Source: Giardia intestinalis (taxonomy: Eukaryota). From it: a DNA stretch of 64,000 nucleotides. The notes under the pieces are model-generated. The model did not search any database. It was not told the DNA's origin and saw only the letters and a program-made list of their open reading frames with translations. Each line of letters starts with the position of its first letter. Position 1 is the first letter of the stretch. The translations under genes and the position numbers were made by a program. Below are positions 20,291-35,997 of this stretch, piece after piece. Location: assembly GCA_000002435.2 (NCBI GenBank), contig CM018789.1; one strand, written 5' to 3'.

Positions 20291-20621
20291 AGTGGTGACG
20301 CGCGCAGTAGACCTTAGTGGTTACATGACTCAGCAGTCTTCTGTGAACAAGAGCTTAGCACTGCTGGGTTCACTTTATCTTGGCAGACGGCTTCATGACG
20401 AGCCGCAGCATCGACTCCATGGCTTGTTGCAAGAACACCGCTGGCCAAGAGCACTGTACAAGAGAATTGGCACCACGAGCACATTAATATAGAAGTGGCT
20501 GATGGACAAGACTAGGGAGACTCTCTGGCCACTGACACTGTTCGTTGTTATTGCAATCCACATTACAATATTATTAAACCCCTGTTCGTGTTGAGTACGC
20601 TCGCGGCGAACCGCCAGCTAG

Positions 20622-21230
20622 ATCGATAAGTGCGAAATAGTCGGTGACGCAGAGATCTGCACCCAGTGCAACGGAGATGGGTCTCAATCTGCCCCGACGG
20701 ACGGAGTGTGCTCAGCAGACAATAACGAGTGTACCCGGAAGCAAGATGGGAAGTGCACACAGTGCGCTAATAGGTCCTTCATGTACAAGGGCGGATGCTA
20801 CAAGGATAGCCAGGCACCTGGCAACACGATGTGTGAAGCAGCAAATGCTGGAGTATGCACACAGGCTAAGGAAGGGTACTTCCTGCTACCAGACGCAGAC
20901 GACTCTCACCAGTCGGTCATACCGTGCGGAGATGACACAGTAGTAACAGTTAGCGGCGATAAGAAGTACAAGGGCGTGCTGCACTGTACTTAGTGTAATA
21001 CACCTGACGCAGCACAGGATACTACTACTCCCAAGGCTGCCACTTGCACGACCTGTGAGGATGGTTTCTTTGTAGATAGTAGTAATAGATGCACTGCTTG
21101 TCCGGAGAACTGCCTGACCTGCACTGGTAAAATAGTCAAGGAAGAAGCCGACGGGGCAACTGCTTACATTGCTACTAATGACTGTATTCAACTTTCTAGT
21201 GAAGGCCCAATCTTTTTAATCCCCGTCTCT
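20622..21230 (+). pseudogene. VSP (variant-specific surface protein) pseudogene fragment: 5'-truncated, one in-frame TAG, 3'-truncated
   Basis: The reading frame from 20622 gives ...CTQCANRSFMYKGGCYKDSQAPGNTMCEAANAGVCTQAKEGYFLLPDADDSHQSVIPCGDDTVVTVSGDKKYKGVLHCT*CNTPDAAQDTTTPKAATCTTCEDGFFVDSSNRCTACPENCLTCTG. This is collinear with the N-terminal third of the intact VSP at 31678-33528 (CGSCKDGYFMYKSGCYNSGGSPGNEMCTSAPEGKCSTPAAGYFIIPTTDADASHQSVVSCSD...KIYKGVEGCAECT). There is no ATG or signal peptide, no TM helix and no CRGKA tail. The frame is broken by a TAG at 20991. Confidence 0.7.
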
Positions 21231-21914
21231 GAGGGGTTTGTCGTCTCCTGTTTCTATCTGCAGCCGCGCCGGGGACAGAGCGGCTCTCGCGGGGCCAGGC
21301 ACCTGGTGTCCTGGGCGGCGCCGGGTCTGAGTGGGTATGCGCCTTCAGCACTGTGGGCGTCCCCCGTCCCTCTCCTGTACAAGGGATCGGTGATGCGTAC
21401 CCCCTCGGTCTGCGTGCGGTTGTCAGTGCCCGTGCCTCGTGGTACCCCGGCTCTTTCAGCCCCAGCTGTCGTGGCGCCCTGCTCCGGCCATATCCCCACG
21501 AGGCCGCGTATTCTTCCATGGGACGGTCCTGGTTCCGTAGAGGCACGCCTGGGCCCACGATTCTCCCTGCGGAGGCCCCGTTGTCTGTGCTACTGGGGTC
21601 TGGGCCATCCGTCTGTACCGCTGCTTCAGGAGTCACATGAGTAAACTGCCTTTCACGTGGCTTTTTATAGAAGTAGACACTGATTGTAATCAACAGGGTC
21701 TAAAGATCTCTCGCCAATTGTACATGTCAGATCCTGTGGATTTTGGAATCCTTGGGTAGCATCCGTGCCCGGCTGATACGCGCGCCTCGGGCTCAGCAAG
21801 CCTGCCGCCCTCCTCCTCTTGCCCCCTGCGAGGACGCCGCCACTGGCTAGGCGCGTGCACAGCTTGTCCATCCGGCCCTTGAGAAGAGCCACATCACACG
21901 AGGAAGGGCGTCGT

Positions 21915-22721
21915 TTACTCGAGGAGAGAGGCGATTGCGTCGTGGCCATGCCTCCTTGCGATGTCGAGGGCGGTGGTGCCGGGCGGGAAGCCGAACCACT
22001 CACGGGTGGTCTGCATGCCCTTCTCCTTGTCCATCAGGAGCCTCGCACACTCCAGGCGGCCACTCTGCGCTGCATGCATGAGCGCTGTCCATCCATTGTT
22101 AGTCTTCATGCCGTCTTCTTTGTCTATTAGAAGCCTCACGCAGTCCGAGCAACCGTTGTCGGCTGCGTGCATGAGGGCAGTCCACCCACTGTTGGCCCTC
22201 ATTCCGCATTCCTTGTCCAGTAGAGCCTCCGCACACTCACAGCGCCCATACTGTGCTGCATACATTAGGGCGGTCTTCCCATCATCCGTTTTCATGCCAC
22301 CCTCCCTCTCCAGGAGGAGCTGCACGAACTCCAGTTTGCCGCGCTGTGCTGCGTACATAAGGGCAGTGGTGCCGTTGTTCCTCCTTTTGCTGCCTTCCCT
22401 CTCCAGCAGGAACTTCGCGCATTCCGGGTGGCCCCCGTACGCCGCCCGCATGAGCGCGGTCTCTCCAAGCTTATTCTGTGTGCTACCTTTCATCTTCAGC
22501 AGAACCTTCACGGCTCTCAGGTTTCCATACTCTGCTGCTGACATGATGTCGGTCTCGACGAAGCCGTATTTCAGCAACAAAAAAGACGAGAGACTCAGCC
22601 CGCTCCTCCCTTGTTGGTGGTAAAACTCTGCGGCTTCATCGATGCTCCTATCAGAAGCAGACCCCTCGGTGTCCTGAGAGCGACGACTCATTTCCGAAGC
22701 CCCAAGCACGTCGCTCGACAT
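21915..22721 (-). CDS. Ankyrin-repeat protein of the Protein 21.1 family (about 268 aa)
   Basis: About six repeats of 33 aa of the Giardia type (TALMxAAxxGxxExVxLLxxxEGG). The ORF track starts at a TTG (22871) inside GC-rich DNA. The first ATG (22721) is preceded by the initiator aagttaaaaATG. Confidence 0.8.
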   Translation of the reverse strand: MSSDVLGASEMSRRSQDTEGSASDRSIDEAAEFYHQQGRSGLSLSSFLLLKYGFVETDIMSAAEYGNLRAVKVLLKMKGSTQNKLGETALMRAAYGGHPECAKFLLEREGSKRRNNGTTALMYAAQRGKLEFVQLLLEREGGMKTDDGKTALMYAAQYGRCECAEALLDKECGMRANSGWTALMHAADNGCSDCVRLLIDKEDGMKTNNGWTALMHAAQSGRLECARLLMDKEKGMQTTREWFGFPPGTTALDIARRHGHDAIASLLE

Positions 22722-22879
22722 TTTTAACTTCGTCTGCTTGCAGGAAGACACTGCCACGGAAACACACACTTTGCTCTCTACTTCATTGAGAACGGTTTGC
22801 CAACTGCTGTCCGAGCATCTCCGTGGGAGCCGCCGCGCTGGGTGGGTCTCCGCTCGCCGTCCGGGGTCCAAATCCAGAG

Positions 22880-23940
22880 TCCGAGGTCGGATGCCCTCGA
22901 TCCCGGCGGAAGAAGAACTCCTATGTCTGCCTCCCCTGGAAGCTGCCGCTCCTCGCGGTGCCCCCTAGGACTTTCCTTCCTTTGGCTAGCTTGGGTCAGC
23001 TCCGTCTGATATCTAGTGAGCACCTGCTATCTCGGATCTTGCGTCAGTCGCGACGATCTGGCCTCCACAGAATCCAAGGCCCTGGTGCTCCATGACGAAG
23101 ATCCCACGCCACGACCCCGGGTGTCCACCCCGTTCCTCGGGGTGCCTCTTCGTCTCCTCGTGGAGGGCACCATCTGTTCCATTCTCAAGGGTGCGCTCCC
23201 CATGCGCCTCTATCTTGAGGTTGTGGTACGCGTTTGTGGATGCCGGCGGAGCACTCCCATGCGTTGTGTCGGGGGAGAGGCCCACCTCTCTGCTCATGGA
23301 TCGCAGAGGTGGTCTGTCACCCAGCACGAGATCATGTCGACGCCCACCCTGTGCAGTGCGTCTGGCTCGGCTGACAGTGTGAGCTGCGTCCATCTGACAG
23401 CACACTTGGAGATGATGCTTCGGTCTGTCGAGGCAGTCAGTCCAGGGCCACCCCTCTGAAGGGTGTCATATGAAGTATCAAGAGCGATCAGGACAGGTTC
23501 ACCGAAGTCGTCTCGCTTGGCGCTCATCTACTCGAGGGTGTCAGGCACTGCCAGCTGCTGCGGCAGACCCTAGGTAGGTGACCCAGACCACCACTCTCGG
23601 TGCGGGCAGGATCAGTCCGCCTCTGCCAGCCAAGCACCCCAACTCCCATCTCTTGTCGAGGGATTCACATGGGTCACGTGTGGATCCATCTCGACCAGCG
23701 TGACAAGTGATTAGTGCCATCACTGGCTTCAGGCTCTCCGTTGCCTTGGGCGTTCCTTGAGACCAGCCAGGAAGGAGGCCTCCTGCTTCTCAGTGTTCCT
23801 ATACTTGTCAGTGTTGACCGTCGAGCCATGTCGCTTCATCAGGCCTGCCGCCTCTGTGGCTACCCCCGTTGCGTCACTGTCGTCACTGTAAAAGATGAGT
23901 GTGTCGTCAGTGTAGGCAATGAGCTTGAAGCGGCTCACTA
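22880..23940 (-). mobile_element. Possible degenerate, 5'-truncated non-LTR retroelement remnant containing a reverse-transcriptase motif-C fragment
   Basis: The short minus-strand ORF at 23729-23938 encodes LIAYTDDTLIFYSDDSD, a tandem Y-x-D-D pattern that matches the RT active-site motif followed by hydrophobic residues. The surrounding 1 kb is GC-rich (unlike nearby genes) and lacks any long ORF, consistent with frameshifted decay. The extent is uncertain. Confidence 0.3.
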
Positions 23941-24207
23941 GACAGCGGCTGATTCAGAGAAGATTAAATAAAGAGAAGGTAAGATTCTTGGAAAGTTAAG
24001 ACGAGAAGTAAGATATTGGCTCTCAGCGTATAGAAACACAAAGTTCCTTCTTTCTTGCCGGAGCTGGATCGCATCCAAATGCTAAATCCTGAATTCCAAA
24101 TTCTGGACTTTTAAACAAACGAAGATGCTATCTGGAATGACAATTCAACTGGGCAGCAACTGGAAAGCCCGTCATAATGAAGCAGAGTAATTCAGTAGTG
24201 CAATTTA

Positions 24208-25716
24208 TTAAGCAAAATACCGATTCTTCTCGATGTCAGCAACAAAGAGCACTCTGTCCTCGCTGCACAGATAAACAGTGTCGATGGTAGGGTAGTCGAT
24301 GAAGTTCCCGTTCATGAGGGCCACCCCTGTCTCGGCCAGAATCGGGTTAACAAGGGGGAGGTACTTATCTAGAAGAAGACGCTTCAGTAGGGGAACAGGG
24401 TCGTCCATCCCTTCGCTGTGCTTCTTGGTGGCGATATCGTACACATCAAGGAACTCTACATATGCACGAACTTGGTCATTGGCAAACCCGTAGGTAAACT
24501 TCTTAAGCTTGACCGCAGAAGAGAAGAGCACGTCGCCCTCAAGGTTGGCCAGAGTTACAGAAGTTTGGTCTGAACTCTTGCTGGCTGTCACAGAGAGGGC
24601 CCCCGTGAGGTTGACCGGTAGTGTAGCCGCCCCGATCCACGGTATGTGGGGTGCGGCATCCTTGGAGGGACTGATCGATAGAGTCAAGGTGACCCCGAGT
24701 CCAAGGTCGCTAACACTGCTTAGTAGTCCGGCCTTCACAAGGGCCTCTGCAAGACCGGGTATGTTCTGCCCCCTGATGGTGCTGTACGGGACAGTGAGAC
24801 TATCTGCCTTGAACTTGTCATACGCCACATGCCAGGCATACAGGTAGGAGTTAACTGATTCCCTGTCTACATAGAACTCATAGTCTCGGTCGGTGTAGAC
24901 CGTCTTCGGAGGGGGAGAGGTGATCTTGTTTGGATAGAGAGCTCTAACCGACCAATCTGGGACAGTGATGATCATTGAAAAGCCACCCTGGTCTGCCACT
25001 ATCTTGTTATCGACGACATTGATGCCGTTGATGTAGCGCTGGTCAGTCAGATAGTCGTCGATCTGGACAACTAAGGGCAGGTTGAGCATTGACTGCTTTA
25101 TTGAATTGAAGATTGTGTTAAAGAGGAGCTGCAGCACAGTGTCCTTTATTAGGGTCTCCAACGTGGGGGCCATGCCTTGGATGGCAGTTGCAAGGACAGA
25201 GCCCCCTGTGTCGAGTCCGATGGCATCGATGTCAAGCCCAGACGAGTACACGACGTTCGATATCTCGGAGAGCCCGAAGTGGTACGGGCAGGTGGGGTCG
25301 TCTCCGAGCCTCAGAGAGATGTCTGCCCCGAAGTCCTTGAGGGTGAATATGCAGTCGACGGTCCCGGTGATCCCGGTGATGACTGCCTTGAGTCGCATCG
25401 AGATCTGCATGAGTCCGTCCCGGGCCTCCATCTTGACAAAGTTGTTATCTTGCAAATAAACCTTCATGGTTGAAACACGCACTGCACGGGGTCTGATATT
25501 GGAGAGAGTAATCTGCAAAGTCCCGACAGTTATGGGTATCTCTGGAAACGCTGGAAGACCAGAAATAATGTCAGGAATGATAGAGTAGCCCTTCTGGCAG
25601 AACTTCTCCAGCCCACGTCTGGTGAAGCGCATTCCCATTCCATGTTCAGGTTCGTTAGTAAAAGGTGTACCCAGGGCACATCCCAAAGTAATAGAAAATA
25701 GTAGTAGTATTAGCAT
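24208..25716 (-). CDS. Secreted protein with N-terminal signal peptide, tentatively BPI/LBP/CETP-like lipid-binding (502 aa)
   Basis: N-terminus MLILLLFSITLGCALG looks like a signal peptide. The region after it (RRGLEKFCQKGYSIIPDIISG...VKMEARDGLMQISMRLKAVITGITG...LRLGDDPTCPY) resembles the start of the BPI N-terminal barrel in spacing and in its single Cys pair. The call is tentative. Confidence 0.6.
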   Translation of the reverse strand: MLILLLFSITLGCALGTPFTNEPEHGMGMRFTRRGLEKFCQKGYSIIPDIISGLPAFPEIPITVGTLQITLSNIRPRAVRVSTMKVYLQDNNFVKMEARDGLMQISMRLKAVITGITGTVDCIFTLKDFGADISLRLGDDPTCPYHFGLSEISNVVYSSGLDIDAIGLDTGGSVLATAIQGMAPTLETLIKDTVLQLLFNTIFNSIKQSMLNLPLVVQIDDYLTDQRYINGINVVDNKIVADQGGFSMIITVPDWSVRALYPNKITSPPPKTVYTDRDYEFYVDRESVNSYLYAWHVAYDKFKADSLTVPYSTIRGQNIPGLAEALVKAGLLSSVSDLGLGVTLTLSISPSKDAAPHIPWIGAATLPVNLTGALSVTASKSSDQTSVTLANLEGDVLFSSAVKLKKFTYGFANDQVRAYVEFLDVYDIATKKHSEGMDDPVPLLKRLLLDKYLPLVNPILAETGVALMNGNFIDYPTIDTVYLCSEDRVLFVADIEKNRYFA

Positions 25717-26543: not shown

Positions 26544-28601
26544 TTATTTTGAGGACTGCTTAGAAAGAATAGAAAGTACTTCTCTATAGCCTTTCCTCCT
26601 GGCTATGTCTGAGGCTGTTGATTCAGATGGATAGGCCTGATCGTCATCTTCCCAATAGACATTATGAGTAGTTTTTATGTCCCCTTCTTTGCTTGCAAGA
26701 AGTCTCACGCATTCTAGATTGTTATTGCACGTTGCTCTCATAAGAGCGGTTATGCCATTCTTATCTTTCATACAGGCCTCCTTTTTCAGTAAGAGTTTAA
26801 CTGAATTCTGGTTGTTAGATTGAGCTGCATACATGAGGGCAGTACGATCCTCGCTGTTTTGTGCCCCTTCTTCCACGTTCATTAAAAGCCCTACAAGCTC
26901 AGTGTGGTTAGTGAGTGCAGCGTACATAAGAGCAGTCCAACCAGTGTTGTCTTTCATGCCTCCCTCATGCTCCATGAGTAGCTTTACAGCATCGGTATGT
27001 CCATATATTGTTGCGCCCATAAGCGCTGTTCGATTGCATAATGTATACCCATTGATATAGGCTTTCCCTGGAGCCTGACATCTTTTCTGAAGAGGAATCA
27101 AGAGCTTTACGACCTCCACATCCCCTCTATCTGCGGCCCGCATGAGTGCCGTGACTCCATCCTTGTCAGTTGGATCTATGAGCTCCACAATATCCTTATG
27201 TCCCATTCTCGCTGCAAGTGTCAACGCTGTATCTCCGTCTTTATTCATCTTATTTCTGTTATTGTCGATATACTTCTTAGCCGCTCTCGCATCTCCGACA
27301 ACCACAGCATGCATAAGCGGGGTCCAAGAGGAATCACACATGGGAATGAGGTTATTTAGCCTAAAACCCCGAGAAACCTGCATCCTGAGTTCTTCCGTGG
27401 CTTTAGAGAACTGTTGCTGTTGCTGCTGACTATTCTTTTGAAGTGCCTGCAGCTGGGAAATGCAACCCTTACACTGGGTTTCAAGGCCATCAATTCTGCT
27501 TGATCTGGCCCTAACCTCTTTTTGGAGGGAAATTATGTCAGCTGACTGCTTCTCGATAATGCTCTTTAGAGAGCTAATTTCAGTAGATTTGCTGTTGAGC
27601 TTCTCCTTGAGAGAAGTCAGCTCTGCTCTGTGGTTCTCGTTGGAACTATCAAGTGTCTGCTTGAGGATCTCACACTCACGCTGAAGAGATACCACCTGTG
27701 TCCTGAGCTCTTTACTGATCAGTAGTTCTATTAGCGTTTGATCTCTCGCCAGACTAACGAGCTCCTTGGCAGACAGACGGGCCTCGGGATCTAGAACAAG
27801 GATATATCTGAGGAGTTCCCTAAGGAGAGGACTCTGGACAGAGGTTAGATTCGGCTTCCAGTCATTTGTGAATGCTGATTGTGAATCGTCACTATTTGCA
27901 AAGCTTGGTCTGCTCAATGTGGCAAGCTCATAGATGATGCAGCCAAGAGCCCAAACGTCTGACGCAGGACTGTGTTTGCTATAAATAACTTCTTCTGGAG
28001 CAGAATAGGAAAAGATACTTGCACTGACCCCATTTTGTAAGAGCTCTCTGGGAAGCCCGTAGTCTGTGAGGACAAAGTGCTTGCCATTATCACTAGCAAG
28101 GATACTGGTAGGTGTGAGACCTCCGTGGATGATGACTGGGAGGGGCTTTCCGTTGGCAGCTATCTTCCCCGAGTCGTAGAGGTATGCAAGACCAGAGGCT
28201 ACTTGCTCAAGTATGAGAAAAATGTCTTGTTCGGAGACAGGCTGCCTCGCTCTTTTATGCCTATTGATCATGCTCTCAATGGTTTCCCTGTAGCAATCTA
28301 CAACAACGTAGATGAACTCTCCATCGCAGAGTACCTGGTAACACCTGAGGACATGTGGGTGGGAAAGCCTGGTATGAACAAGCAGGTTGCATTGTATATC
28401 CTTTATAATGTCCTCTGTGAAACTATCAAGTTGAATCTCTCTGACAGCTAAGGCTGGGTATCCCTCAAGAGCATAAAGGATTCCGGATGCCCCCCTTCCA
28501 AGTATTTCGCTTAGACAATGCAGAAGGCTTTCAAGCGTAAACTTAGGAATCGAACAGGTATCTTTGGCAGTGGATAGCATGCAGCTGGATGCAGAGGCCA
28601 T
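26544..28601 (-). CDS. NEK-family protein kinase-like protein with coiled-coil region and C-terminal ankyrin repeats. Predicted pseudokinase
   Basis: The ORF track starts at a TTG (28643). The first ATG is at 28601 (MASASSC...). Kinase-fold motifs are present but degenerate: G-loop GRGASG, beta-3 AVREI (Lys replaced by Arg), catalytic loop IIHGGLTPTS in place of HRDLKPEN, DYG in place of DFG, APE retained. The C-terminus has at least 6 Giardia-type ankyrin repeats. Confidence 0.85.
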   Translation of the reverse strand: MASASSCMLSTAKDTCSIPKFTLESLLHCLSEILGRGASGILYALEGYPALAVREIQLDSFTEDIIKDIQCNLLVHTRLSHPHVLRCYQVLCDGEFIYVVVDCYRETIESMINRHKRARQPVSEQDIFLILEQVASGLAYLYDSGKIAANGKPLPVIIHGGLTPTSILASDNGKHFVLTDYGLPRELLQNGVSASIFSYSAPEEVIYSKHSPASDVWALGCIIYELATLSRPSFANSDDSQSAFTNDWKPNLTSVQSPLLRELLRYILVLDPEARLSAKELVSLARDQTLIELLISKELRTQVVSLQRECEILKQTLDSSNENHRAELTSLKEKLNSKSTEISSLKSIIEKQSADIISLQKEVRARSSRIDGLETQCKGCISQLQALQKNSQQQQQQFSKATEELRMQVSRGFRLNNLIPMCDSSWTPLMHAVVVGDARAAKKYIDNNRNKMNKDGDTALTLAARMGHKDIVELIDPTDKDGVTALMRAADRGDVEVVKLLIPLQKRCQAPGKAYINGYTLCNRTALMGATIYGHTDAVKLLMEHEGGMKDNTGWTALMYAALTNHTELVGLLMNVEEGAQNSEDRTALMYAAQSNNQNSVKLLLKKEACMKDKNGITALMRATCNNNLECVRLLASKEGDIKTTHNVYWEDDDQAYPSESTASDIARRKGYREVLSILSKQSSK

Positions 28602-29029
28602 GTGGGTTTTTATTGACTGTGAATTATAGATCCGATTGGGCAATCAATTGAGTTCACCATAGAATTTCAAAGGAATGATGTGTAGTAATGTAAGTCTCAG
28701 TCCATCTAACTAGGAGATATTCCGTATCTGACGATAGAGGGATCTGTTGCAATTGGCGCAACTGATGCCAATCAGCCCTCTCACACGGATCGGATATGTT
28801 TTATCATACTGTAAATCTGACTATATGTCCACTTAGAATCCATATTAATACTCCTAGGCTCGTCATTGTTCAAGAATAAATATGACACTGTAATAGACAG
28901 TTGCACTCAGAATAATCTTCTTGCAGACTGGGACACAGATCAGTTGTTCTCTTCAAGGCTATATTGAACCAAAACCATCTATAGGCTTTATATGCTGATG
29001 ATTCACTCCACTCACTGGTTGTTTCCGGT

Positions 29030-29650
29030 GCTTTGCTGATGGGACCCTCGTCTGGGTGTGGTCCAGAGGTCTCACGAGTGACCCTCGCTCAATTCCTGGC
29101 CAGTCCGGAGACAAAGGTCGACTTTGGATAATATAACGAGAGAGTCCTCTCCAATGATATGTCCAGAGCCTGGTGCGCTCCTCGGTCGTTCCACAAGCGT
29201 GTGCTCAGACCGAATGCGTACATCGGTCCTTTAGGGGTTCAGCTTACTTACCCATCTGCGTCGTCCACCAGTGGCGCCTCTCCTTGGTCTTCCTTCACGG
29301 TGGGTGAAGCTCTGGTCGCCGTCTTTTTTAGATGCTCCCGTCTGACTCGGTGATTGCTGTCGGGGCTCTCCACTGGCCGCCCCTCGGTGTCCATCCGGCT
29401 GTGGTTCTGGGCAGTGGTCCCACAGTCGCGGTTACCTGGGTCCCAGTGGGCCAGCTGGTGGGGAGGCTGGGGTTGCTGGGGCGGTGAGGCCGGAGGGGAC
29501 TGGTGGGACCGGGGGCGGTGTTCATATGTGCCCCTGGGTCTGGTGGGCCATTGGGGTGGTGGGGTGATCGCAGCTGTGGTGACTGGGGGCTGTCCATCTG
29601 TGACTCACCCCTCTGTGTGCTCGTGGTCTGTGAGTGCCTCCACCCAGACA
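29030..29650. repeat. Left arm of a large inverted repeat. Core 29163-29404 is 100% identical to the reverse complement of 31272-31513
   Basis: Compared directly base by base. The outer and inner flanks are alignable but diverged, with indels. Confidence 0.85.
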
Positions 29651-31009
29651 ACACTCAGGAGCCGTGCACACCGGGACAGAGAGGGTGACCAAGGGGAGTC
29701 AAGCAGCCCTGCCATGAGAGTGCACAGCAACCAGCCTGAGCTGTAGAGTCTGCTCGAGCGATGGTAGTGGCAGACGACTCCCTCTGACAGCAACCCTGGT
29801 GACTGCACTGGTCTGCTCTCGAGGCTGAGTGACAGTGTGCACAGATGGACATGAGTGCAGGAGGACCATCCACACACGAACAGACTGTGTGGACCCAGAG
29901 AGGACTGGAGTCTGCTCGGGACACGCTGACTGTGCCCCGTACGAGAGTGTCAGGCAACCACCCGAGCACCCGAGAGGCAGCAACAGACACGGGCACTAGA
30001 GATCCCCAGCCAGACACATTGCTATGCCCATCCACAGGGGCATCAGAAGGCCAGGTGGGGTCACCCTCACAACCAGGACCTGATAGGAAGCCAGAGGACT
30101 CAAACACTACAGCAGAGCAGGCCCAAGGGAGGCACACTCCAGGCAGGCGAGCAGTGGCAGAGCCTTGATAGCTGCCATCCACCCCCATGACACCTATAGC
30201 AGGCACCAGACTCACCGAAGGCTCCGCTGGCCTCCACCGATGACCCGAGGGGACAGCGACCAGAGGAGTGAGGAGACCTTCGGATGACACAAGAGGCCGG
30301 CTGTCCAGCAAGCGATGGAACACAGGTGACCTCTGAGCACCATAAGGCACAGAGCCAACCATCAGAGTGATGCCCGATCACAGAGACGACCACGAGCACC
30401 CTCCACCGCACTCTGAGGGGCTGTCAATCATCCCACTGCCTCTCATAGCAGACCTCCTTAAGGGCAGTGCAGTGGGGCCCAGCTCATGCAGGGAGGTGCA
30501 CACCCCTCAGTATAGGACACCCCGGCTCTCCCCGAGGGGTCATCAGAGCCACGAGGAGGTGTCAAGGTCCTGGTAGACCACACCGAGAACTCCCGAACAG
30601 GCACAGCAGGTGATGTTGGGTGATCCTCAGCGTGCTCCTCTCTGATGGTAGAGCATCCTGAGACCAAGGGGGCTCACCTCTGCCTATGAACAACACACAG
30701 CACTCCACAACGAGGATCCACCAGGAGCAGCACAGCTGACCACGGGGACAGTGCAGCCACCCGGTACCCCACCGTGCCAGTCTTCTGGGCCATCACACTA
30801 GAGGCCTGAGAGAACCCCATCCCATCCACAGGGTCATCCATGCCCCTGCTAGCCCGAGGTGAACTACCCCCGTCGAGGCACTGGACAGGGCATGCCAGGG
30901 GCCCAGCAGACCCGCACAGAGCAACAGGAGAGGCTACGATAGCCTGCCTCACCCTTCACGTACTAGTCAAACAGAGAGGTAGTACTGCCTGAGGCATGCA
31001 GAGGCCAAG

Positions 31010-31650
31010 GGAGGCGCTCAGTCAGGGGGACACGACACGATCGTCGGTGTCTGTGTCTCGGGAGTGCAACGAAGGCTGGGGATCAGACACAACCACCTTG
31101 GCAAACAGAGCGGGGATCACCCACCACCCCAATGGCCCATCAGACCCAGGGGCACATACAGACATCACTCCCAGTCCCCTCCAGCCCTCACCGCCCCATA
31201 CCCCGCCTCACCCATCATCCGAACCCGCTGGGACCCAAGCGACCGCGACTGTAGAGCACTGACTCGAGCCACAGCCGGATGGACACCGAGGGGCGGCCAG
31301 TGGAGAGCCCCGACAGCAATCACCGAGTCAGACGGGAGCATCTAAAAAAGACGGCGACCAGAGCTTCACCCACCGTGAAGGAAGACCAAGGAGAGGCGCC
31401 ACTGGTGGACGACGCAGATGGGTAAGTAAGCTGAACCCCTAAAGGACCGATGTACGCATTCGGTCTGAGCACACGCTTGTGGAACGACCGAGGAGCGCAC
31501 CAGGCTCTGGATGTATCACTGGAGAGGATTCTCTCGTTATATTATTCACAACCAGCCATCGTCTCTGGACTGGTCAGGAAGGAGCGATGATTACCCACAC
31601 GATCTCTGGACCGCGCTCAGATAGCCCCAGCAGCACATCTACATAGGCTA
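31010..31650. repeat. Right arm of the inverted repeat. Ends about 15 nt from the VSP polyA signal
   Basis: Reverse complement of the left arm. The short ORFs 29328-29654 (-) and 31064-31345 (+) end with the identical peptide ...GGQWRAPTAITESDGSI, which confirms the mirror symmetry. Confidence 0.85.
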
Positions 31651-31663
31651 CATAAAGTAACGC

Positions 31664-31670
31664 GTTTACT
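31664..31670 (-). terminator. VSP polyadenylation signal AGTAAAC
   Basis: The minus strand reads GKA-TAA-cttaggt-AGTAAAC, the characteristic arrangement at VSP 3' ends. Confidence 0.6.
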
Positions 31671-31677
31671 ACCTAAG

Positions 31678-33528
31678 TTACGCCTTCCCTCTACATATGA
31701 ACCACCAACACAAGAAGCCTATGAGACCACCTACAACAACAATCACAGCAACGGAGATCCCTGCTATGGCCCCTGTGGAGAGGCCACTCTTGTTTGTACT
31801 ACCACCGGTGTTATCATCACCACCACTAGTGCCGTCTGTTTTGACATAGCAAGTAACAGAGCCACTACCACCAGCCGGAGGAGCGCAGCTTATGCAATTA
31901 GGCACACCAACTATTCCGTTGGCACTAGCATCACACTTCACGCAGCTACTTCCGGACTTATAGTATCCGGGGAGGCATTCTGAGCATGCTTTGGGACTAC
32001 CACTAGTCGCGCACTTTGAGCACCCATCCGGACACGCCGGGCAGGAACCCGAAGTGGTATCTGCTGCTTGCCCATTGGCACATGTCTGGCACTTTCCATC
32101 GCTAGCCGTTGTGCACAGCGTATTACCCGGAAAGGCTCCGGCGCTGTAGCACCCACCCGATTGCAGGAAGTATGAGCCTGTACACGCAGTACATACTCCG
32201 TCACCCGGCGTGCATCCAGTCGGCGCCCTTGTCGTTGTCGACACACAGACGCCGTCCACTGGGACGTATCCGGCCTTGCACCTGCTGCAGTACTTGGAGC
32301 CACCTACGACGGCCTTGCACTGGTCAGCCTCGCAGTTCTCTGCGTACCTTCCCGTGCACTCTTTTATGCACGCTCCTGTGTCACCAGACGACCGATTCAG
32401 CACAGACCCCGGATAGCAGGCCGTGCACGACGCTTCTGCGTCATTGCTACAGCTTGCGCACGACTCGTGGCAGGGGGTGCACACCTTGCTGTTGGCATAC
32501 ATCCCGGCAGGGCAGGCTGTTAGACACGCGTCCTTCAGGGGGCTCAGGTTGTGAGTGGTGCACTCAGAGCACGTGATTAGTGGGCCTGCGCTTGCAGGAG
32601 TTGCCTTGAGAGAGCACTTTGCACAATCCTCTATGCCACCATTGACAGTATCGCTGCACTTAGCACACACCTTCTTGCCCTGTGCATCGGCTGTGGGGAA
32701 GAATCCATCCTTACACTCCTCTGCGCTAACACAAGAGGTTGTCCCCGATTCTGTCTTCAGATATTTGTCTTGATCACATTTTTCACAGACAACCTTAGTA
32801 TCATATGTGCATTTGACACAATTTGGCACCCCTGTCGCGGCTGGAATTAAGCTTGCTTCAGGCGAACTACACGACTGGCAAGTCTTTAGCTGCTTTCCAC
32901 TTGTTGCTGTGTGCCCGAAGTATCCTTCCGGGCATTCAGTCAGACATGCAGTTCCACCTTCGATTGGGGCGTGTAGAAAGTCAGTCGTACACTTAGTACA
33001 GGTCGCGGTGGTAGCTAAGTTATCTAGTGTGCATTCAGCACATCCTTCCACGCCCTTATAAATCTTGTCGCTTTTCCCGTTCGCTCCCTCACTGTCACTG
33101 CACGACACGACAGATTGATGAGAGGCGTCTGCATCTGTTGTTGGAATGATGAAGTATCCAGCTGCAGGAGTGCTACATTTTCCTTCAGGTGCACTAGTAC
33201 ACATTTCGTTCCCTGGAGAACCTCCCGAATTATAGCATCCGCTTTTGTACATGAAGTATCCATCTTTACAAGATCCGCACTTTCCTTCAACTGGATCAAT
33301 GCACTTCGTATTTGCTTGATCCGTTGCACTCACTACACACGTTCCGTCAACAAGGTGTTCGTTATCCACGGAACATTTTGAGCAATAAGGCTGTTCTCCT
33401 ATGGATACATCACAGTGACCCTTTTTACACTTAGTAGTGTCATGAGTCCCCGGATTTCCATCATCTTCCAGGCACGCTGCCCAAGCCAATTGCAATATGC
33501 AGTTTGCGAAGAGAATTTTTTCGAACAT
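31678..33528 (-). CDS. Variant-specific surface protein (VSP), intact (616 aa)
   Basis: N-terminal signal peptide MFEKILFANCILQLAWAA. Dozens of CXXC motifs and GGCY motifs. C-terminal TM helix followed by the invariant CRGKA-stop tail (...FLCWWFICRGKA*). AGTAAAC polyA signal 7 nt after the stop. Confidence 0.95.
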   Translation of the reverse strand: MFEKILFANCILQLAWAACLEDDGNPGTHDTTKCKKGHCDVSIGEQPYCSKCSVDNEHLVDGTCVVSATDQANTKCIDPVEGKCGSCKDGYFMYKSGCYNSGGSPGNEMCTSAPEGKCSTPAAGYFIIPTTDADASHQSVVSCSDSEGANGKSDKIYKGVEGCAECTLDNLATTATCTKCTTDFLHAPIEGGTACLTECPEGYFGHTATSGKQLKTCQSCSSPEASLIPAATGVPNCVKCTYDTKVVCEKCDQDKYLKTESGTTSCVSAEECKDGFFPTADAQGKKVCAKCSDTVNGGIEDCAKCSLKATPASAGPLITCSECTTHNLSPLKDACLTACPAGMYANSKVCTPCHESCASCSNDAEASCTACYPGSVLNRSSGDTGACIKECTGRYAENCEADQCKAVVGGSKYCSRCKAGYVPVDGVCVSTTTRAPTGCTPGDGVCTACTGSYFLQSGGCYSAGAFPGNTLCTTASDGKCQTCANGQAADTTSGSCPACPDGCSKCATSGSPKACSECLPGYYKSGSSCVKCDASANGIVGVPNCISCAPPAGGSGSVTCYVKTDGTSGGDDNTGGSTNKSGLSTGAIAGISVAVIVVVGGLIGFLCWWFICRGKA

Positions 33529-34002
33529 TAGCTAATAGCAGTAAGGAGTGTCCGAAAGATAGTCTCATCCTGCGCTTGCTCCTCTGCTCAGGCCCACGGT
33601 CTCCTGTCTCTGGCACTGAACCCTGAACTATGTGCTGGGCGGGCTTCAGAAGCGAAGAGCGGCGCACACTGTGAACGAAGAAAAACTGCAAGGTGAGACC
33701 ACAATTCTGCCATACAAGATCCCCTATAGCCACACGCTCATCATCAAAGTTCGATTTATTCCATCTAGATGAGCAAATGATACTTCGTACCTGTATCGAA
33801 TCTTAAACGTCTCGCCCACGCATTACTTACGTCGCTAAACCACCGTTCTGAGGGCGAGATATCTTTCAGCATTTATAACCAAAAAATTAAGCTCACCCAA
33901 AGTCAACGGAGCGCCAGCTACGTGTTATGGGCAGCGAAAGTACCAGAGCCAAAGAGTTCCTCTGATCGCCTGGCCGGAGCACATTTGTGATCTCCTATAC
34001 CT

Positions 34003-35997
34003 TCATTTAATTAGCGTCCTCTGGGAGGATGCATTCACCAGCCAGCCTGCTATAGTGCGGGGCGCAGACCACAAGTCACAGGGTGCTCCATGATATACTT
34101 CTGTAGTGGTGTCTGAGAGTTCGACTTGCAGGGCCTCGGCAACCCTAGTAAGGACCTCCACACGTTCTTCATCAGATCCAAATAGATCACACTCTATCGT
34201 TGACGGACCCCTTGTGCAATCATACGCAGAGATAATTAGAAGAGAGAAAGTAGTATTTGGCAGAGAGAGACCGTTTGAGACGAACTCATCCAATTTGATG
34301 GCTTGGGAGTTGTGCGCTGCAGCCTGAGAAATTGACGCCATATACCCCTCTGAAAAGGTGCACAGAGATGTTCGTCTACGAAACTGGCCAGCTTTAGATA
34401 TTTCAACATCGGGGACCATGTCTGAAAGATGCATCACGTAGTCGTGTATCTCTGTGTACTTTCCTGTGTCATATACGTAACTAGCCAAGCTAAAGGAGGC
34501 GATTACCGACTTTACAGGTTCTAACTTTCCTTCCTCATTCTGCAAGATAGCTGCTGAGGCATTAACACCAAATAACGCTTCTAAAACAAGATGTTGTGGG
34601 AAGTAGTCTATTCCAACTACCTCATCCACTGGTACTACAAGAGTTTGTAAGGCTCTGGCTGCCAGCTTAGCCCAAGTGAGACACACCGAGGTCCCGCTAC
34701 CATGGCCCACGCAGGTAAATCTCACCCTCTGTGAAATTAATTCTGTGGAAATATTTTGCTTGGCAAAGCAAGCCTCGATATGTCGAGCATCAGTCAACTC
34801 ATATTGTTTCGAGTCAGGATTGTATCTTGCAGGCAGCTGGCAACGCTCGCGAAGGTCAAATATCAACTCAGCTGCGAGCAGAAGAGCTATATTATTCACC
34901 ATCTTGGCCTCTGTGACAAGCTCCAGAGGATACTTCCCTACACTGGATGACCCATATCCGGGTCTATCTACGAGGACATAAAGGCACCCATATGGGTCCA
35001 GTGCCGATGCATTGCGAGCCAGAGGTAGAAGGGTGGTGCTGTCCTGCCCTTGATCATGAAGCATAATAGTTATGCAACTGTAAGTGCCTGAATCTTCTTG
35101 AGTAGACCTAGCGATGTCGAGACTCGCCGAAGATATGTATCTTCCTGTTTGCATCTCATCATCAACATAACTATACAGGATAACTGAGCGGCTTGTCAGG
35201 GATTTTGAGGAGGACGTGGCCAATAAGTAAGTCTGTGAGCAAAGAAAAATGTGGATACAAAGGGATAAAATTAATAGGATTGCTACTATTGCTAATCGTG
35301 CCGTTACTGGGATATTAGATAGTCTGGATGTCTTTGGTTGCTCGACAGTACTAAGAACGTCCTCAACCTCAGGCTGGTCGAAGAGTAGCGCGTTATCACC
35401 TTCACATTGAGCCCCATTATAACCGCCATCAGATACTTTTGAGGGGTCAAAGCAGGCCACCTCCGCCCTGGTGGATTGGCTTGGGGTTAAACTCTCGATT
35501 GGTGTTTCCGAAAGCAGAGATGCGGTAGTAGATGGAGCAGTCTGAGTGTTGCGAAGTTTGTGCGATAAATGACTTTGTGCAGAAATCCAGAGAACACTTA
35601 TGTGTAGAAGGATGGCTGTACTTAAATAGACCACTGCTGCGGAGACATACCTAAGAGCATATGTCATAAATATATCCACTCCTATCTTCAATACGGCTAT
35701 GACACTGATAAAGATTAACTCAAGAGAAGACTTACGGTTTCTGAAAAATATCACGGCAATAAGTTCAAAGAGCACAGAAAATGCATCAAGAGCATTGGCA
35801 ACAGCCATCCAGAGAATCATCCACGGGCCTATTGGTGAACTATAGTCCATGACACCCACAAGTGGAAGTGATTGCGCAATAATTCCAATAACAGATTGGA
35901 GGGTTCCTATTACTGCGATACACGTAAGGCAGAGCTCAACGATGAACAGAGAGCCCTCCCTGGTGCAGGCCCCGGGGCGCCTAAAGGCAGCCGGCAT
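34003..35997 (-). CDS. Multi-pass membrane protein (about 5 N-terminal TM helices) with a C-terminal alpha/beta-hydrolase-like domain (664 aa)
   Basis: Hydrophobic helices in the first 150 aa. DRPGYGSS (abhydrolase D-x-x-G-x-G-x-S box) and VGHGSGTSV at the nucleophile-elbow position, which is degenerate relative to GHSxGG. ATG at 35997, 12 bp from the upstream gene's stop. Confidence 0.65.
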   Translation of the reverse strand: MPAAFRRPGACTREGSLFIVELCLTCIAVIGTLQSVIGIIAQSLPLVGVMDYSSPIGPWMILWMAVANALDAFSVLFELIAVIFFRNRKSSLELIFISVIAVLKIGVDIFMTYALRYVSAAVVYLSTAILLHISVLWISAQSHLSHKLRNTQTAPSTTASLLSETPIESLTPSQSTRAEVACFDPSKVSDGGYNGAQCEGDNALLFDQPEVEDVLSTVEQPKTSRLSNIPVTARLAIVAILLILSLCIHIFLCSQTYLLATSSSKSLTSRSVILYSYVDDEMQTGRYISSASLDIARSTQEDSGTYSCITIMLHDQGQDSTTLLPLARNASALDPYGCLYVLVDRPGYGSSSVGKYPLELVTEAKMVNNIALLLAAELIFDLRERCQLPARYNPDSKQYELTDARHIEACFAKQNISTELISQRVRFTCVGHGSGTSVCLTWAKLAARALQTLVVPVDEVVGIDYFPQHLVLEALFGVNASAAILQNEEGKLEPVKSVIASFSLASYVYDTGKYTEIHDYVMHLSDMVPDVEISKAGQFRRRTSLCTFSEGYMASISQAAAHNSQAIKLDEFVSNGLSLPNTTFSLLIISAYDCTRGPSTIECDLFGSDEERVEVLTRVAEALQVELSDTTTEVYHGAPCDLWSAPRTIAGWLVNASSQRTLIK

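What the first reader, a model, noticed from the sequence alone, without database searches (positions are those of the whole stretch)
29651..31009. 1.36-kb C+A-rich, G-poor, ORF-free spacer between the inverted-repeat arms
The plus strand between the arms is dominated by C and A (runs of cacagc, ccacc, acagag), has strong strand asymmetry, and has no ORF with Giardia-like codon bias. All six-frame ORFs here are short and GC-skewed. Its composition differs sharply from the flanking genes, which are about 49% GC and strand-balanced. It could be a structured or long non-coding RNA, a decayed insertion, or the loop of the palindrome.
Basis: seen in the sequence. Interest (0 to 1): 0.55.

Follow-up and report, generated by a model that had tools for sequence, protein, structure and literature searches.

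The report
Core of Giardia VSP tail-to-tail spacer
The odd C+A-rich stretch is the unpaired middle of a 2.7-kb non-coding module that Giardia carries just downstream of some surface-antigen (VSP) genes; this kind of module is already described, and here it has only one VSP gene instead of the usual inverted pair.

Summary
The window is Giardia (assemblage A-like). The stretch is real and compositionally extreme, but it is T-poor (13.6% T), not G-poor (28.7% G). It holds a 235-aa minus-strand ORF that is not conserved.

It is the unpaired core (29579-31105) of a 2,672-nt element (28990-31661). The element starts 16 nt after the stop of a VSP gene (31678-33528, minus). The arms are inverted copies of the VSP 3' flank.

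Six further copies from metagenome assemblies carry a VSP next to one arm or the other. The size (2,688 nt from stop codon to far end) and arm length (about 530-570 nt) match the published tail-to-tail VSP pair intergenic regions of isolate WB (2,526-2,813 bp). Here the second VSP is missing. The syntenic locus of isolate P15 has an unrelated 676-nt stretch instead.

The core is non-coding: 91 of 96 indels break the frame, there is no codon periodicity, and Pfam, Rfam and RNA-fold tests are all negative. It is 90-95% identical between copies, against 73-88% for the arms. It forms most of the longest stretch in the window without an AT-rich octamer (2,014 nt).

Verdict: a new member of a known kind. 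Function is not shown; the best guess is a palindrome spacer and promoter-free buffer.

The parts
28990..31661 (.). Whole 2,672-nt VSP-downstream module (left arm + core + right arm).
   Evidence: Homology to the syntenic P15 locus ends at 28989 and resumes at 31662; P15 has an unrelated 676 nt in between. Homology to the paralogous copy L012 also ends at 28989. From the VSP stop codon to the left end is 2,688 nt.
29051..29578 (+). Left inverted-repeat arm, an inverted copy of the VSP 3' flank. It is A-poor on the + strand.
   Evidence: BLASTN 29051-29578 against 31621-31106 gives 86.6% over 531 nt. Weaker similarity extends outward to about 29011 by comparison with L011, which has a VSP there.
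29579..31105 (.). Unpaired core (the finding, 29651-31009, lies inside it). It is T-poor, 60% GC, non-coding, and the best conserved part of the module.
   Evidence: Composition. Pairwise identity between 7 copies is 90-95%, against 73-88% for the arms. 91 of 96 indels are not multiples of 3, and variable sites show no period of 3 (p=0.69). No Pfam, Rfam or fold signal.
31106..31621 (-). Right inverted-repeat arm, the actual 3' flank of the VSP gene. It is T-poor on the + strand.
29162..29404 (.). Left half of a perfect 243-nt inverted match between the arms (partner 31269-31511). It is probably a recent arm-to-arm gene-conversion tract.
   Evidence: Longest common substring analysis. The rest of the arms is 50-80% alike. 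Short-read Logan contigs L001-L004 end inside this tract; the other six end left of it.
31269..31511 (.). Right half of the perfect 243-nt inverted match.
29322..29333 (+). T6AGAT tract in the left arm. TTTTTTAGATG is identical in all six left arms examined. Together with its right-arm mirror it is one of the few AT-rich sites in the module.
   Evidence: With its partner it bounds the 2,014-nt stretch free of AT-rich octamers, the longest in the window.
31340..31351 (+). Mirror copy of the tract (CATCTAAAAAA) in the right arm. In L012's right arm it is shortened to A4.
31678..33528 (-). VSP gene (616 aa, ends in CRGKA). Its AGTAAAC poly(A) signal lies at 31664-31670, just outside the module.
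   Evidence: Pfam PF03302, E=9.7e-90. Translation. Poly(A) signal.
29655..30362 (-). 235-aa ORF, judged spurious.
   Evidence: Its 'homologues' P0001-P0009 are frame-shifted versions of the same DNA. An exhaustive HMMER search of 1.84 billion representatives found only six such pseudo-ORFs. Stop triplets are not depleted relative to dinucleotide shuffles.

Best explanation
The stretch is the unpaired, single-copy core of a conserved non-coding module of about 2.7 kb. In Giardia duodenalis this module sits directly after the poly(A) signal of certain VSP (variant-specific surface protein) genes. In its complete form it separates two identical VSP genes arranged tail to tail.

The two arms are inverted copies of the first 530-570 nt of the VSP 3' flank. 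The core between them has no partner and keeps a fixed polarity.

This window holds an orphan, or 'half-pair', version. The VSP on the right is present, the one on the left is absent, and the arms have drifted to 87% identity apart from a 243-nt perfect tract.

Shown:
- Family membership.
- Architecture and sharp ends.
- Absence of the module at the syntenic P15 locus.
- Non-coding nature.
- Higher conservation of the core than of the arms.
- Lack of AT-rich sites.

Inferred:
- (a) The core acts as the spacer that lets a large inverted repeat be kept stably, while the arms (and, in full pairs, the VSP genes) are homogenised by arm-to-arm gene conversion.
- (b) It has no A/T run longer than 4 nt and no AGTRAA signal. 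It therefore offers none of the AT-rich initiators or poly(A) signals that Giardia uses, so it behaves as a promoter-free buffer between convergent VSP units.
For: Organism and context:
- GlsR27 snoRNA.
- VSP and NEK/ankyrin kinase as flanking genes.

Architecture:
- Inverted-repeat arms.

Family:
- Seven copies were aligned.
- The VSP adjoins the left arm in L011, L013, L015 and L016.
- The VSP adjoins the right arm in the window and in L012.

Match to published tail-to-tail pairs:
- The 3' flanks are identical for 318-559 nt and the ORFs lie 2,393-3,222 bp apart (PMC2996952).
- WB has 12 pairs 2,526-2,813 bp apart with no gene between them (PMC7000408).
- These intergenic regions are 'very similar' between pairs and also occur between non-duplicated VSPs (bioRxiv 10.1101/2022.03.07.483299).
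- Here the distance from stop codon to far end is 2,688 nt.

Sharp ends and absence from the syntenic P15 locus.

Non-coding.

No RNA family or fold signal.

Conservation:
- Core 90-95% against arms 73-88% in every pair of copies.
- For scale, assemblage A versus E four-fold sites are about 77% identical and intergenic DNA 72.5%.

Arm-to-arm conversion: a 243-nt perfect tract.

AT-rich-free stretch of 2,014 nt and no internal AGTRAA signal.
Against: - No complete tail-to-tail pair could be fetched. Identity with the WB pair spacers therefore rests on architecture, size and the metagenomic copies, not on a direct alignment.
- The function is inferred only. No transcript, small-RNA or genetic data were available.
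- The spacer role does not by itself explain why the core sequence is conserved about three times better than the arms, nor why it is T-poor, CpG-poor and ApA/TpT-poor.
- The lack of AT-rich octamers follows from the dinucleotide bias (dinucleotide shuffles give zero in 71% of trials). It may be a by-product rather than a selected property.
- The source assemblage of the metagenomic copies is unknown, so their age, and with it the argument for constraint, is uncertain.
Confidence: 0.72

Rival explanations
1. The core is a functional non-coding element under purifying selection. It could be a long non-coding RNA. Alternatively it could be the loop of a hairpin transcript whose paired arms feed Dicer, tying the module to VSP silencing or switching.
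For: - The core is 90-95% identical in all pairs of copies, while the arms of the same copies are 73-88%. Neutral A-versus-E sites are about 73-77%.
- A transcript spanning the module would fold into a stem of about 500 bp: 506 arm-to-arm pairs in the MFE structure, duplex energy -1059 kcal/mol.
- TTTTTTAGATG is identical in all six left arms, with a mirror copy in the right arms. These tracts could serve as Giardia-type AT-rich initiators.
- An AGTGAAT poly(A)-like signal lies on the minus strand exactly at the left end and is shared with L012.
Against: - No local folding signal (mean z +0.2 on both strands).
- No Rfam match.
- Only weak covariation in the arms (covariation term -1.9 kcal/mol).
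- No expression data were available.
- The arms may simply evolve faster because they are mosaics exchanged along with VSP genes; alternative 25-nt sub-blocks are visible. That would remove the argument for constraint on the core.
Confidence: 0.15
2. The module is a mobile or formerly mobile element, such as a foldback-like or long-TIR non-autonomous transposon or a retroelement relic. Under this view it inserted behind the VSP gene, and the core is its decayed interior.
For: - It is present here but absent from the syntenic P15 locus, with sharp ends.
- It is multi-copy, with different flanks in L011 and L012.
- It has long inverted arms.
- The literature reports retrotransposon relics near duplicated VSPs.
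Against: - The inverted repeat fades before the ends: 48-64% identity in the outer 100 nt.
- No target-site duplication is visible at the junctions.
- There is no Pfam hit for transposase, RT or endonuclease in six frames at E<=1.
- In the literature the RT relics lie between head-to-head pairs, whereas tail-to-tail pairs have 'None' between them.
- P15 differs across the whole VSP cassette, not just the module. A swap of the VSP cassette explains the difference equally well.
Confidence: 0.08
3. It is a decayed protein-coding gene. Either the 235-aa minus-strand ORF is a remnant, or the region is a VSP pseudogene.
For: The 235-aa ATG ORF is longer than in 98% of dinucleotide shuffles. Other copies also carry 150-270-codon open stretches on the minus strand.
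Against: - The open frames differ between copies.
- 91 of 96 indels break the frame, and variability shows no period of 3.
- There is no period-3 signal in the sequence.
- Stop triplets are at the expected number.
- No Pfam hit.
- VSP proteins do not hit the core in tblastn.
- An exhaustive HMMER search found only the same repeat.
- The predicted protein has almost no K, N or I.
Confidence: 0.03

Closest known systems
[quoted passage not shown] 2010, PMC2996952; Xu et al. 2020, PMC7000408; Rodriguez-Walker et al. 2022, bioRxiv 10.1101/2022.03.07.483299)
   Same: - It begins right after a VSP stop codon and poly(A) signal.
- The total length of 2,688 nt falls within the published 2,526-2,813 bp.
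- The inverted 3' flanks of about 530-570 nt match the published 318-559 nt before 'abrupt divergence'.
- There is no gene inside.
- The sequence family is shared between unrelated VSPs. The literature notes the same and also finds it between non-duplicated VSPs.
   Different: - Only one VSP is present; the left arm abuts the upstream region of a NEK kinase gene.
- The arms are 87% identical rather than nearly identical.
- Direct alignment to the WB pair spacers could not be done with the tools available.
Large genomic palindromes with spacers that are kept alike by arm-to-arm gene conversion (for example the human Y-chromosome palindromes; from general knowledge)
   Same: Inverted arms flank a unique spacer. 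A perfect 243-nt tract inside otherwise diverged arms points to conversion. In full pairs the two genes are identical.
   Different: The scale is kilobases rather than tens to thousands of kilobases. Here the spacer itself is a conserved repeated sequence, shared between palindromes that carry different genes.
Foldback or long-TIR non-autonomous DNA transposons
   Same: Long inverted arms, no coding capacity, multi-copy, and present or absent between related genomes.
   Different: The arms do not reach the element ends. No target-site duplication was found. The element is always tied to a VSP 3' end in the copies seen.
Hairpin (inverted-repeat) endo-siRNA loci of other eukaryotes
   Same: A read-through transcript would form a stem of about 500 bp with a loop of 1.5 kb.
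   Different: There is no evidence of transcription or small RNAs. The arms lie downstream of the VSP poly(A) site, so any derived small RNAs would not match mature VSP mRNA.

Membership tests
VSP tail-to-tail pair intergenic module | Starts immediately 3' of a VSP ORF (CRGKA tail, AGTAAAC signal). | tested here: met
   The VSP at 31678-33528 (minus) hits PF03302 at E=9.7e-90 and has a CRGKA tail. The module ends at 31661, 16 nt after the stop codon.
VSP tail-to-tail pair intergenic module | Inter-ORF length of about 2.4-3.2 kb (2,526-2,813 bp in the PacBio WB assembly), with no gene inside. | tested here: met
   2,688 nt from the stop codon to the left end, against the tables read. No conserved ORF lies inside.
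VSP tail-to-tail pair intergenic module | The 3' flanks of the two genes are inverted copies for about 320-560 nt and then diverge abruptly around a unique centre. | tested here: met
   Arms 29051-29578 and 31106-31621, with no similarity beyond them. Identity is 86.6% overall with a 243-nt perfect tract. That is lower than the near-identity reported for intact pairs.
VSP tail-to-tail pair intergenic module | Two identical VSP ORFs in convergent orientation. | tested here: not met
   No VSP lies left of 28990. The sequence there is the NEK upstream region, syntenic with P15. The locus is therefore an orphan or half-pair copy, not a pair.
VSP tail-to-tail pair intergenic module | Sequence similarity to the intergenic regions of other VSP pairs. 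| tested here: inconclusive
   Six metagenomic copies are 84-90% identical overall, with VSPs on either arm. No intact pair, and no WB pair spacer, could be retrieved for direct alignment.
Structured non-coding RNA (any Rfam family) | Covariance-model match, or folding energy beyond shuffled controls. | tested here: not met
   No Rfam hit at gathering score or at E<=1. Mean z is +0.19 (+ strand) and +0.24 (- strand) over 19 windows per strand.
Protein-coding gene or pseudogene | A conserved frame, codon periodicity, or a domain or homologue outside the repeat. | tested here: not met
TIR or foldback DNA transposon | Inverted repeats that reach the element termini, plus a target-site duplication. 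| tested here: not met
   The outer 50-100 nt of the arms are 48-64% alike. No duplicated flank is seen at 28989/28990 versus 31661/31662.
Non-LTR retrotransposon relic (GilM/GilT/GilD) | Remnants of RT or endonuclease domains, or nucleotide similarity to the Gil elements. | tested here: inconclusive
   No Pfam hit in six frames at E<=1. Nucleotide comparison with the Gil sequences was not possible because no such sequences are available to the tools.

The most novel reading that the evidence does not exclude
The 1.5-kb core is a selectively constrained non-coding element. It is shared by VSP tail-to-tail modules and evolves about three times more slowly than its own arms. It acts in the biology of antigenic variation, for instance as a promoter-free insulator or terminator zone between convergent VSPs, as the loop of a hairpin transcript, or as the organiser of arm-to-arm conversion that creates and maintains identical VSP pairs. 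Orphan copies such as this one would then be either precursors or remains of such pairs.
Probability: 0.2. Interest if true: 0.6.

Novelty: new member of a known kind. Interest (0 to 1): 0.3.

Why it matters
VSP genes drive antigenic variation in Giardia. Why about a third of the intact VSPs of isolate WB sit in identical inverted pairs has been called 'cryptic' in the literature.

This locus shows the pair spacer surviving as a discrete, sharply bounded module with a single VSP. It also shows that the unpaired core is the best conserved part of that module. The core also has an unusual composition, with almost no A/T runs, in an organism that starts transcription at AT-rich sites.

If the conservation reflects selection, the core becomes a concrete target for deletion or transcript mapping in studies of VSP duplication and switching. 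If it does not, the finding is ordinary: one more decaying copy of a known repeat.

Tried and rejected
1. Exact-sequence look-ups of the window's VSP and of ORF235 found nothing on record. Look-up of P0012, a WB 'VSP S8' that I hoped was a paired gene, also failed. No intact tail-to-tail pair was obtained.
2. Logan short-read contigs for the NEK gene are 100% identical to the window. They all end at or before 29289, inside the left arm or left of it, so they say nothing about the core.
3. Two scans of JGI metagenome contigs (peptide patterns, then a 22-mer) found no relative. The same 22-mer is absent from IMG/VR viral contigs and from 185,579 prokaryotic genomes. There is thus no viral or bacterial source.
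4. The closest relative of the window's VSP (P0010, locus L017) has no module behind it. The module is therefore not a general VSP feature.
5. An apparent 'flipped' core in L011 was re-examined. It is simply a copy whose VSP adjoins the left arm, as expected for the other half of a pair. I do not claim an invertible segment.
6. CpG depletion as a sign of methylation-driven decay: CpG sites are only slightly more variable between copies (25% against 17%, p=0.08). This is not supported.
7. Tandem or cryptic periodic repeats: none found.
8. G-quadruplex motifs: the only canonical ones in the 64 kb lie in the two arms. However, they are missing from the left arms of the other five copies, so they are not a defining feature.
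9. Conserved RNA structure in the arms: RNAalifold gave a covariation term of only -1.9 kcal/mol, and 6 of 90 pairs had double changes.
10. Similarity to the other GC-rich, ORF-poor zone of the window (21000-24000): none.

Full report
**What the window is**

An Rfam scan finds the Giardia snoRNA GlsR27 at 33890-34002. The ORF at 31678-33528 (minus strand) is a variant-specific surface protein (VSP): it hits Pfam PF03302 at E=9.7e-90 and ends in CRGKA. The ORF at 26544-28601 (minus strand) is a NEK-type kinase with ankyrin repeats.

Short-read assemblies from many sequencing runs match the NEK region at 100%. The locus is syntenic with contig ACVC01000123.1 of Giardia isolate P15 at 80-86% identity. 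The finding lies in a 3-kb gap between the 5' end of the kinase gene and the 3' end of the VSP gene. The median intergenic distance in this genome is about 80 bp (PMC7641422).

**Checking the observation**

- The stretch 29651-31009 has A .259, C .318, G .287 and T .136, against about .25 for each base in the window.
- It is 60% G+C, and the lowest T content of any 1-kb window falls here.
- The asymmetry is A over T (AT skew up to +0.49). It is not C over G, so 'G-poor' is wrong.
- A 235-aa ATG ORF lies on the minus strand, so 'ORF-free' is also not literally true.
- The dinucleotide make-up is unusual: CpG observed/expected is 0.32-0.35 (window mean 0.72, sd 0.12), ApA 0.37, TpT 0.28, and TpG/CpA about 1.5.
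- There is no tandem repeat and no periodicity, including period 3.
- The T-poor domain continues through the right arm to about 31450, and the left arm is its mirror image.
- The arms pair over 29051-29578 and 31106-31621 (86.6%) and not beyond. The unpaired core is therefore 29579-31105.
- Within the arms there is a perfect 243-nt inverted match (29162-29404 with 31269-31511).

**It is a repeated module, not a local loop**

The translated minus-strand ORF finds nine predicted proteins in metagenome assemblies. They match in patches that jump between frames. Their contigs (L011-L016) align to the window at 83-91% identity.

- L012 carries the whole unit of left arm, core and right arm. It has a different VSP at the right end and a different left flank.
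- L014 spans the core.
- L011, L013, L015 and L016 carry a VSP 3' end joined to the left arm, followed by the core.
- Across the family, then, a VSP can adjoin either arm, always tail-first.

This is the layout that Adam et al. described for inverted tail-to-tail VSP pairs in isolate WB. There the 3' flanks are identical for 318-559 nt, then diverge abruptly, and the ORFs lie 2,393-3,222 bp apart (PMC2996952). The long-read WB assembly lists 12 such pairs, 2,526-2,813 bp apart, with no gene between them (PMC7000408). Rodriguez-Walker et al. note that these intergenic regions are 'very similar' or identical between different pairs, and that they also occur between non-duplicated VSPs. In the window, the distance from the VSP stop codon to the far end of the unit is 2,688 nt.

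**Sharp ends, and absence in another assemblage**

In P15 the same neighbours are present. Homology with the window runs from the kinase side up to 28989. It resumes at 31662, which is the VSP poly(A) signal and the last 134 nt of the gene. Between these points P15 has 676 nt with no detectable similarity to the module.

Homology with the paralogous copy L012 also stops at 28989. The module is therefore 28990-31661. No target-site duplication is visible, and the inverted repeat fades before the ends.

The P15 VSP at this position is a different gene (771 aa). The difference between the two isolates thus covers the whole VSP cassette, not only the module. The closest relative of the window's VSP, on a 67-kb metagenomic contig, has no module behind it.

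**Not coding, and not a recognisable RNA**

- Among the seven copies, 91 of 96 indels in the core are not multiples of three.
- Variable sites are spread evenly over the three codon phases (p=0.69).
- Substitutions are mostly transitions.
- Stop triplets on the minus strand are as frequent as in dinucleotide shuffles (36 against 39+/-4). Only the single longest open stretch is unusual (P=0.02).
- Six-frame translations of the whole module hit no Pfam family at E<=1.
- VSP proteins do not hit the core.
- An exhaustive HMMER search of 1.84 billion representative proteins found six hits, all pseudo-ORFs of this repeat.
- Rfam finds nothing, even at E<=1.
- Folding energies of 150-nt windows equal those of shuffled controls on both strands (mean z +0.2).
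- A consensus fold of seven arm copies has a covariation term of only -1.9 kcal/mol.

**What stands out**

First, the core is the best conserved part. All pairwise identities between copies are 90-95% in the core but 73-88% in the left arm. The adjacent VSPs share only 38-53% of residues. For scale, four-fold degenerate sites of the flanking genes are about 77% identical between the window and P15, and the kinase upstream region is 72.5% identical. However, the source assemblage of the metagenomic copies is unknown. The arms also look mosaic, with alternative sub-blocks of about 25 nt. The contrast could therefore mean either constraint on the core or faster turnover of the arms.

Second, the 243-nt perfect tract sits inside arms that are otherwise 50-80% alike. 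This points to recent arm-to-arm gene conversion, even in this orphan copy.

Third, the 2,014 nt from 29326 to 31340 hold no octamer with seven or more A/T. This is the longest such stretch in the window; the next longest is 1,166 nt. The longest A/T run in the core is 4 nt. The stretch is bounded by the T6AGATG tract and its mirror (CATCTAAAAAA). TTTTTTAGATG is identical in all six left arms examined. No AGTRAA poly(A)-type signal lies inside the module, apart from an AGTGAAT on the minus strand at the very left end, which L012 shares. The absence of AT-rich octamers follows from the dinucleotide bias.

**Interpretation**

With good confidence, the finding is the core of an orphan copy of the VSP tail-to-tail module. 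How it works is inference. By analogy with other large palindromes, a long unique centre allows inverted arms, and in full pairs the VSP genes, to persist and be homogenised by conversion. Because the core lacks the AT-rich sequences at which Giardia starts transcription (PMC1885649 appeared in the search list but was not read), it would be a promoter-free zone between convergent genes.

Three rivals remain:
- A constrained non-coding RNA or hairpin locus. A full-length transcript would form about 500 arm-to-arm pairs.
- A formerly mobile element.
- A dead gene, which is essentially excluded.

No expression or small-RNA data could be consulted.

**Novelty**

The class is already in the literature, including the remark that the spacers resemble each other. 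This locus adds a single-VSP copy with defined ends, the contrast in conservation between core and arms, and the compositional description. I rate it a new member of a known kind, of modest interest.

Noticed in passing
window 33890-34002 (+): GlsR27 H/ACA snoRNA (143 bits; gathering score 100). It lies in the 475-nt gap between the start of the VSP gene and the end of the next gene, on the strand opposite to both.
   Followed up: no
window 20505-21110 (+) and 21000-24000: A VSP-like fragment is detected by tblastn with two VSPs, and there is a 95-aa ORF at 20706-20993 with CXXC motifs. It is followed by a 3-kb zone of 58-60% GC with few ORFs. That zone contains an ankyrin-repeat ORF (21915-22871, minus) and the second-longest stretch free of AT-rich octamers (22723-23889). 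It shows no sequence similarity to the module.
   Followed up: partly
window 29536-29564 (+) and 31120-31213 (-): The only canonical G-quadruplex motifs (four G3+ runs, loops of 7 nt or less) in the whole 64 kb lie in the inner parts of the two arms. In each case they are on the strand that is sense for the adjacent (or missing) VSP. The motif is present in L012's right arm but absent from the left arms of the other five copies.
   Followed up: partly
window 29001-29007 (-): An AGTGAAT consensus Giardia poly(A) signal lies on the minus strand exactly at the left end of the module. It is shared with L012, the other copy that lacks a left VSP. A minus-strand read-through from the VSP would meet it after 2.67 kb.
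   Followed up: no
L011 1-478 (ENA ERZ27317378 k141_36282): In this copy the core breaks off at the equivalent of window 30655. It is followed by a weak (68-73%) second arm-like segment, so this is a rearranged or truncated module.
   Followed up: no
window 29225-29260 and equivalent positions in L011-L016: The arms are mosaics. A block of about 25 nt exists in two unrelated versions, CTTACTTACCCATCTGCGTCGTCC and CCTCTCGCAGACTCTCTGCTCT. These versions are distributed among copies independently of the rest of the arm.
   Followed up: no
window 25478-25659: The ten Logan short-read contigs carrying the kinase gene end on the other side at 25478, 25634 or 25659, inside the 502-aa ORF at 24208-25716. 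This suggests another repeat or a heterozygous site there.
   Followed up: no
window 34003-35997 (-): The 664-aa neighbour has no Pfam domain above threshold. Its nearest database cluster (96% identity) is named '6-phosphogluconate dehydrogenase' by one source, which looks like a mis-annotation. The P15 orthologue is called hypothetical.
   Followed up: no
window 31678-33528 (-): The database holds no cluster representative close to this VSP. The best hits are 73% identity over 74% of the length and 83% over 52%, although the neighbouring kinase is 100% identical in many public runs. The VSP itself appears to be isolate-specific or unannotated.
   Followed up: partly
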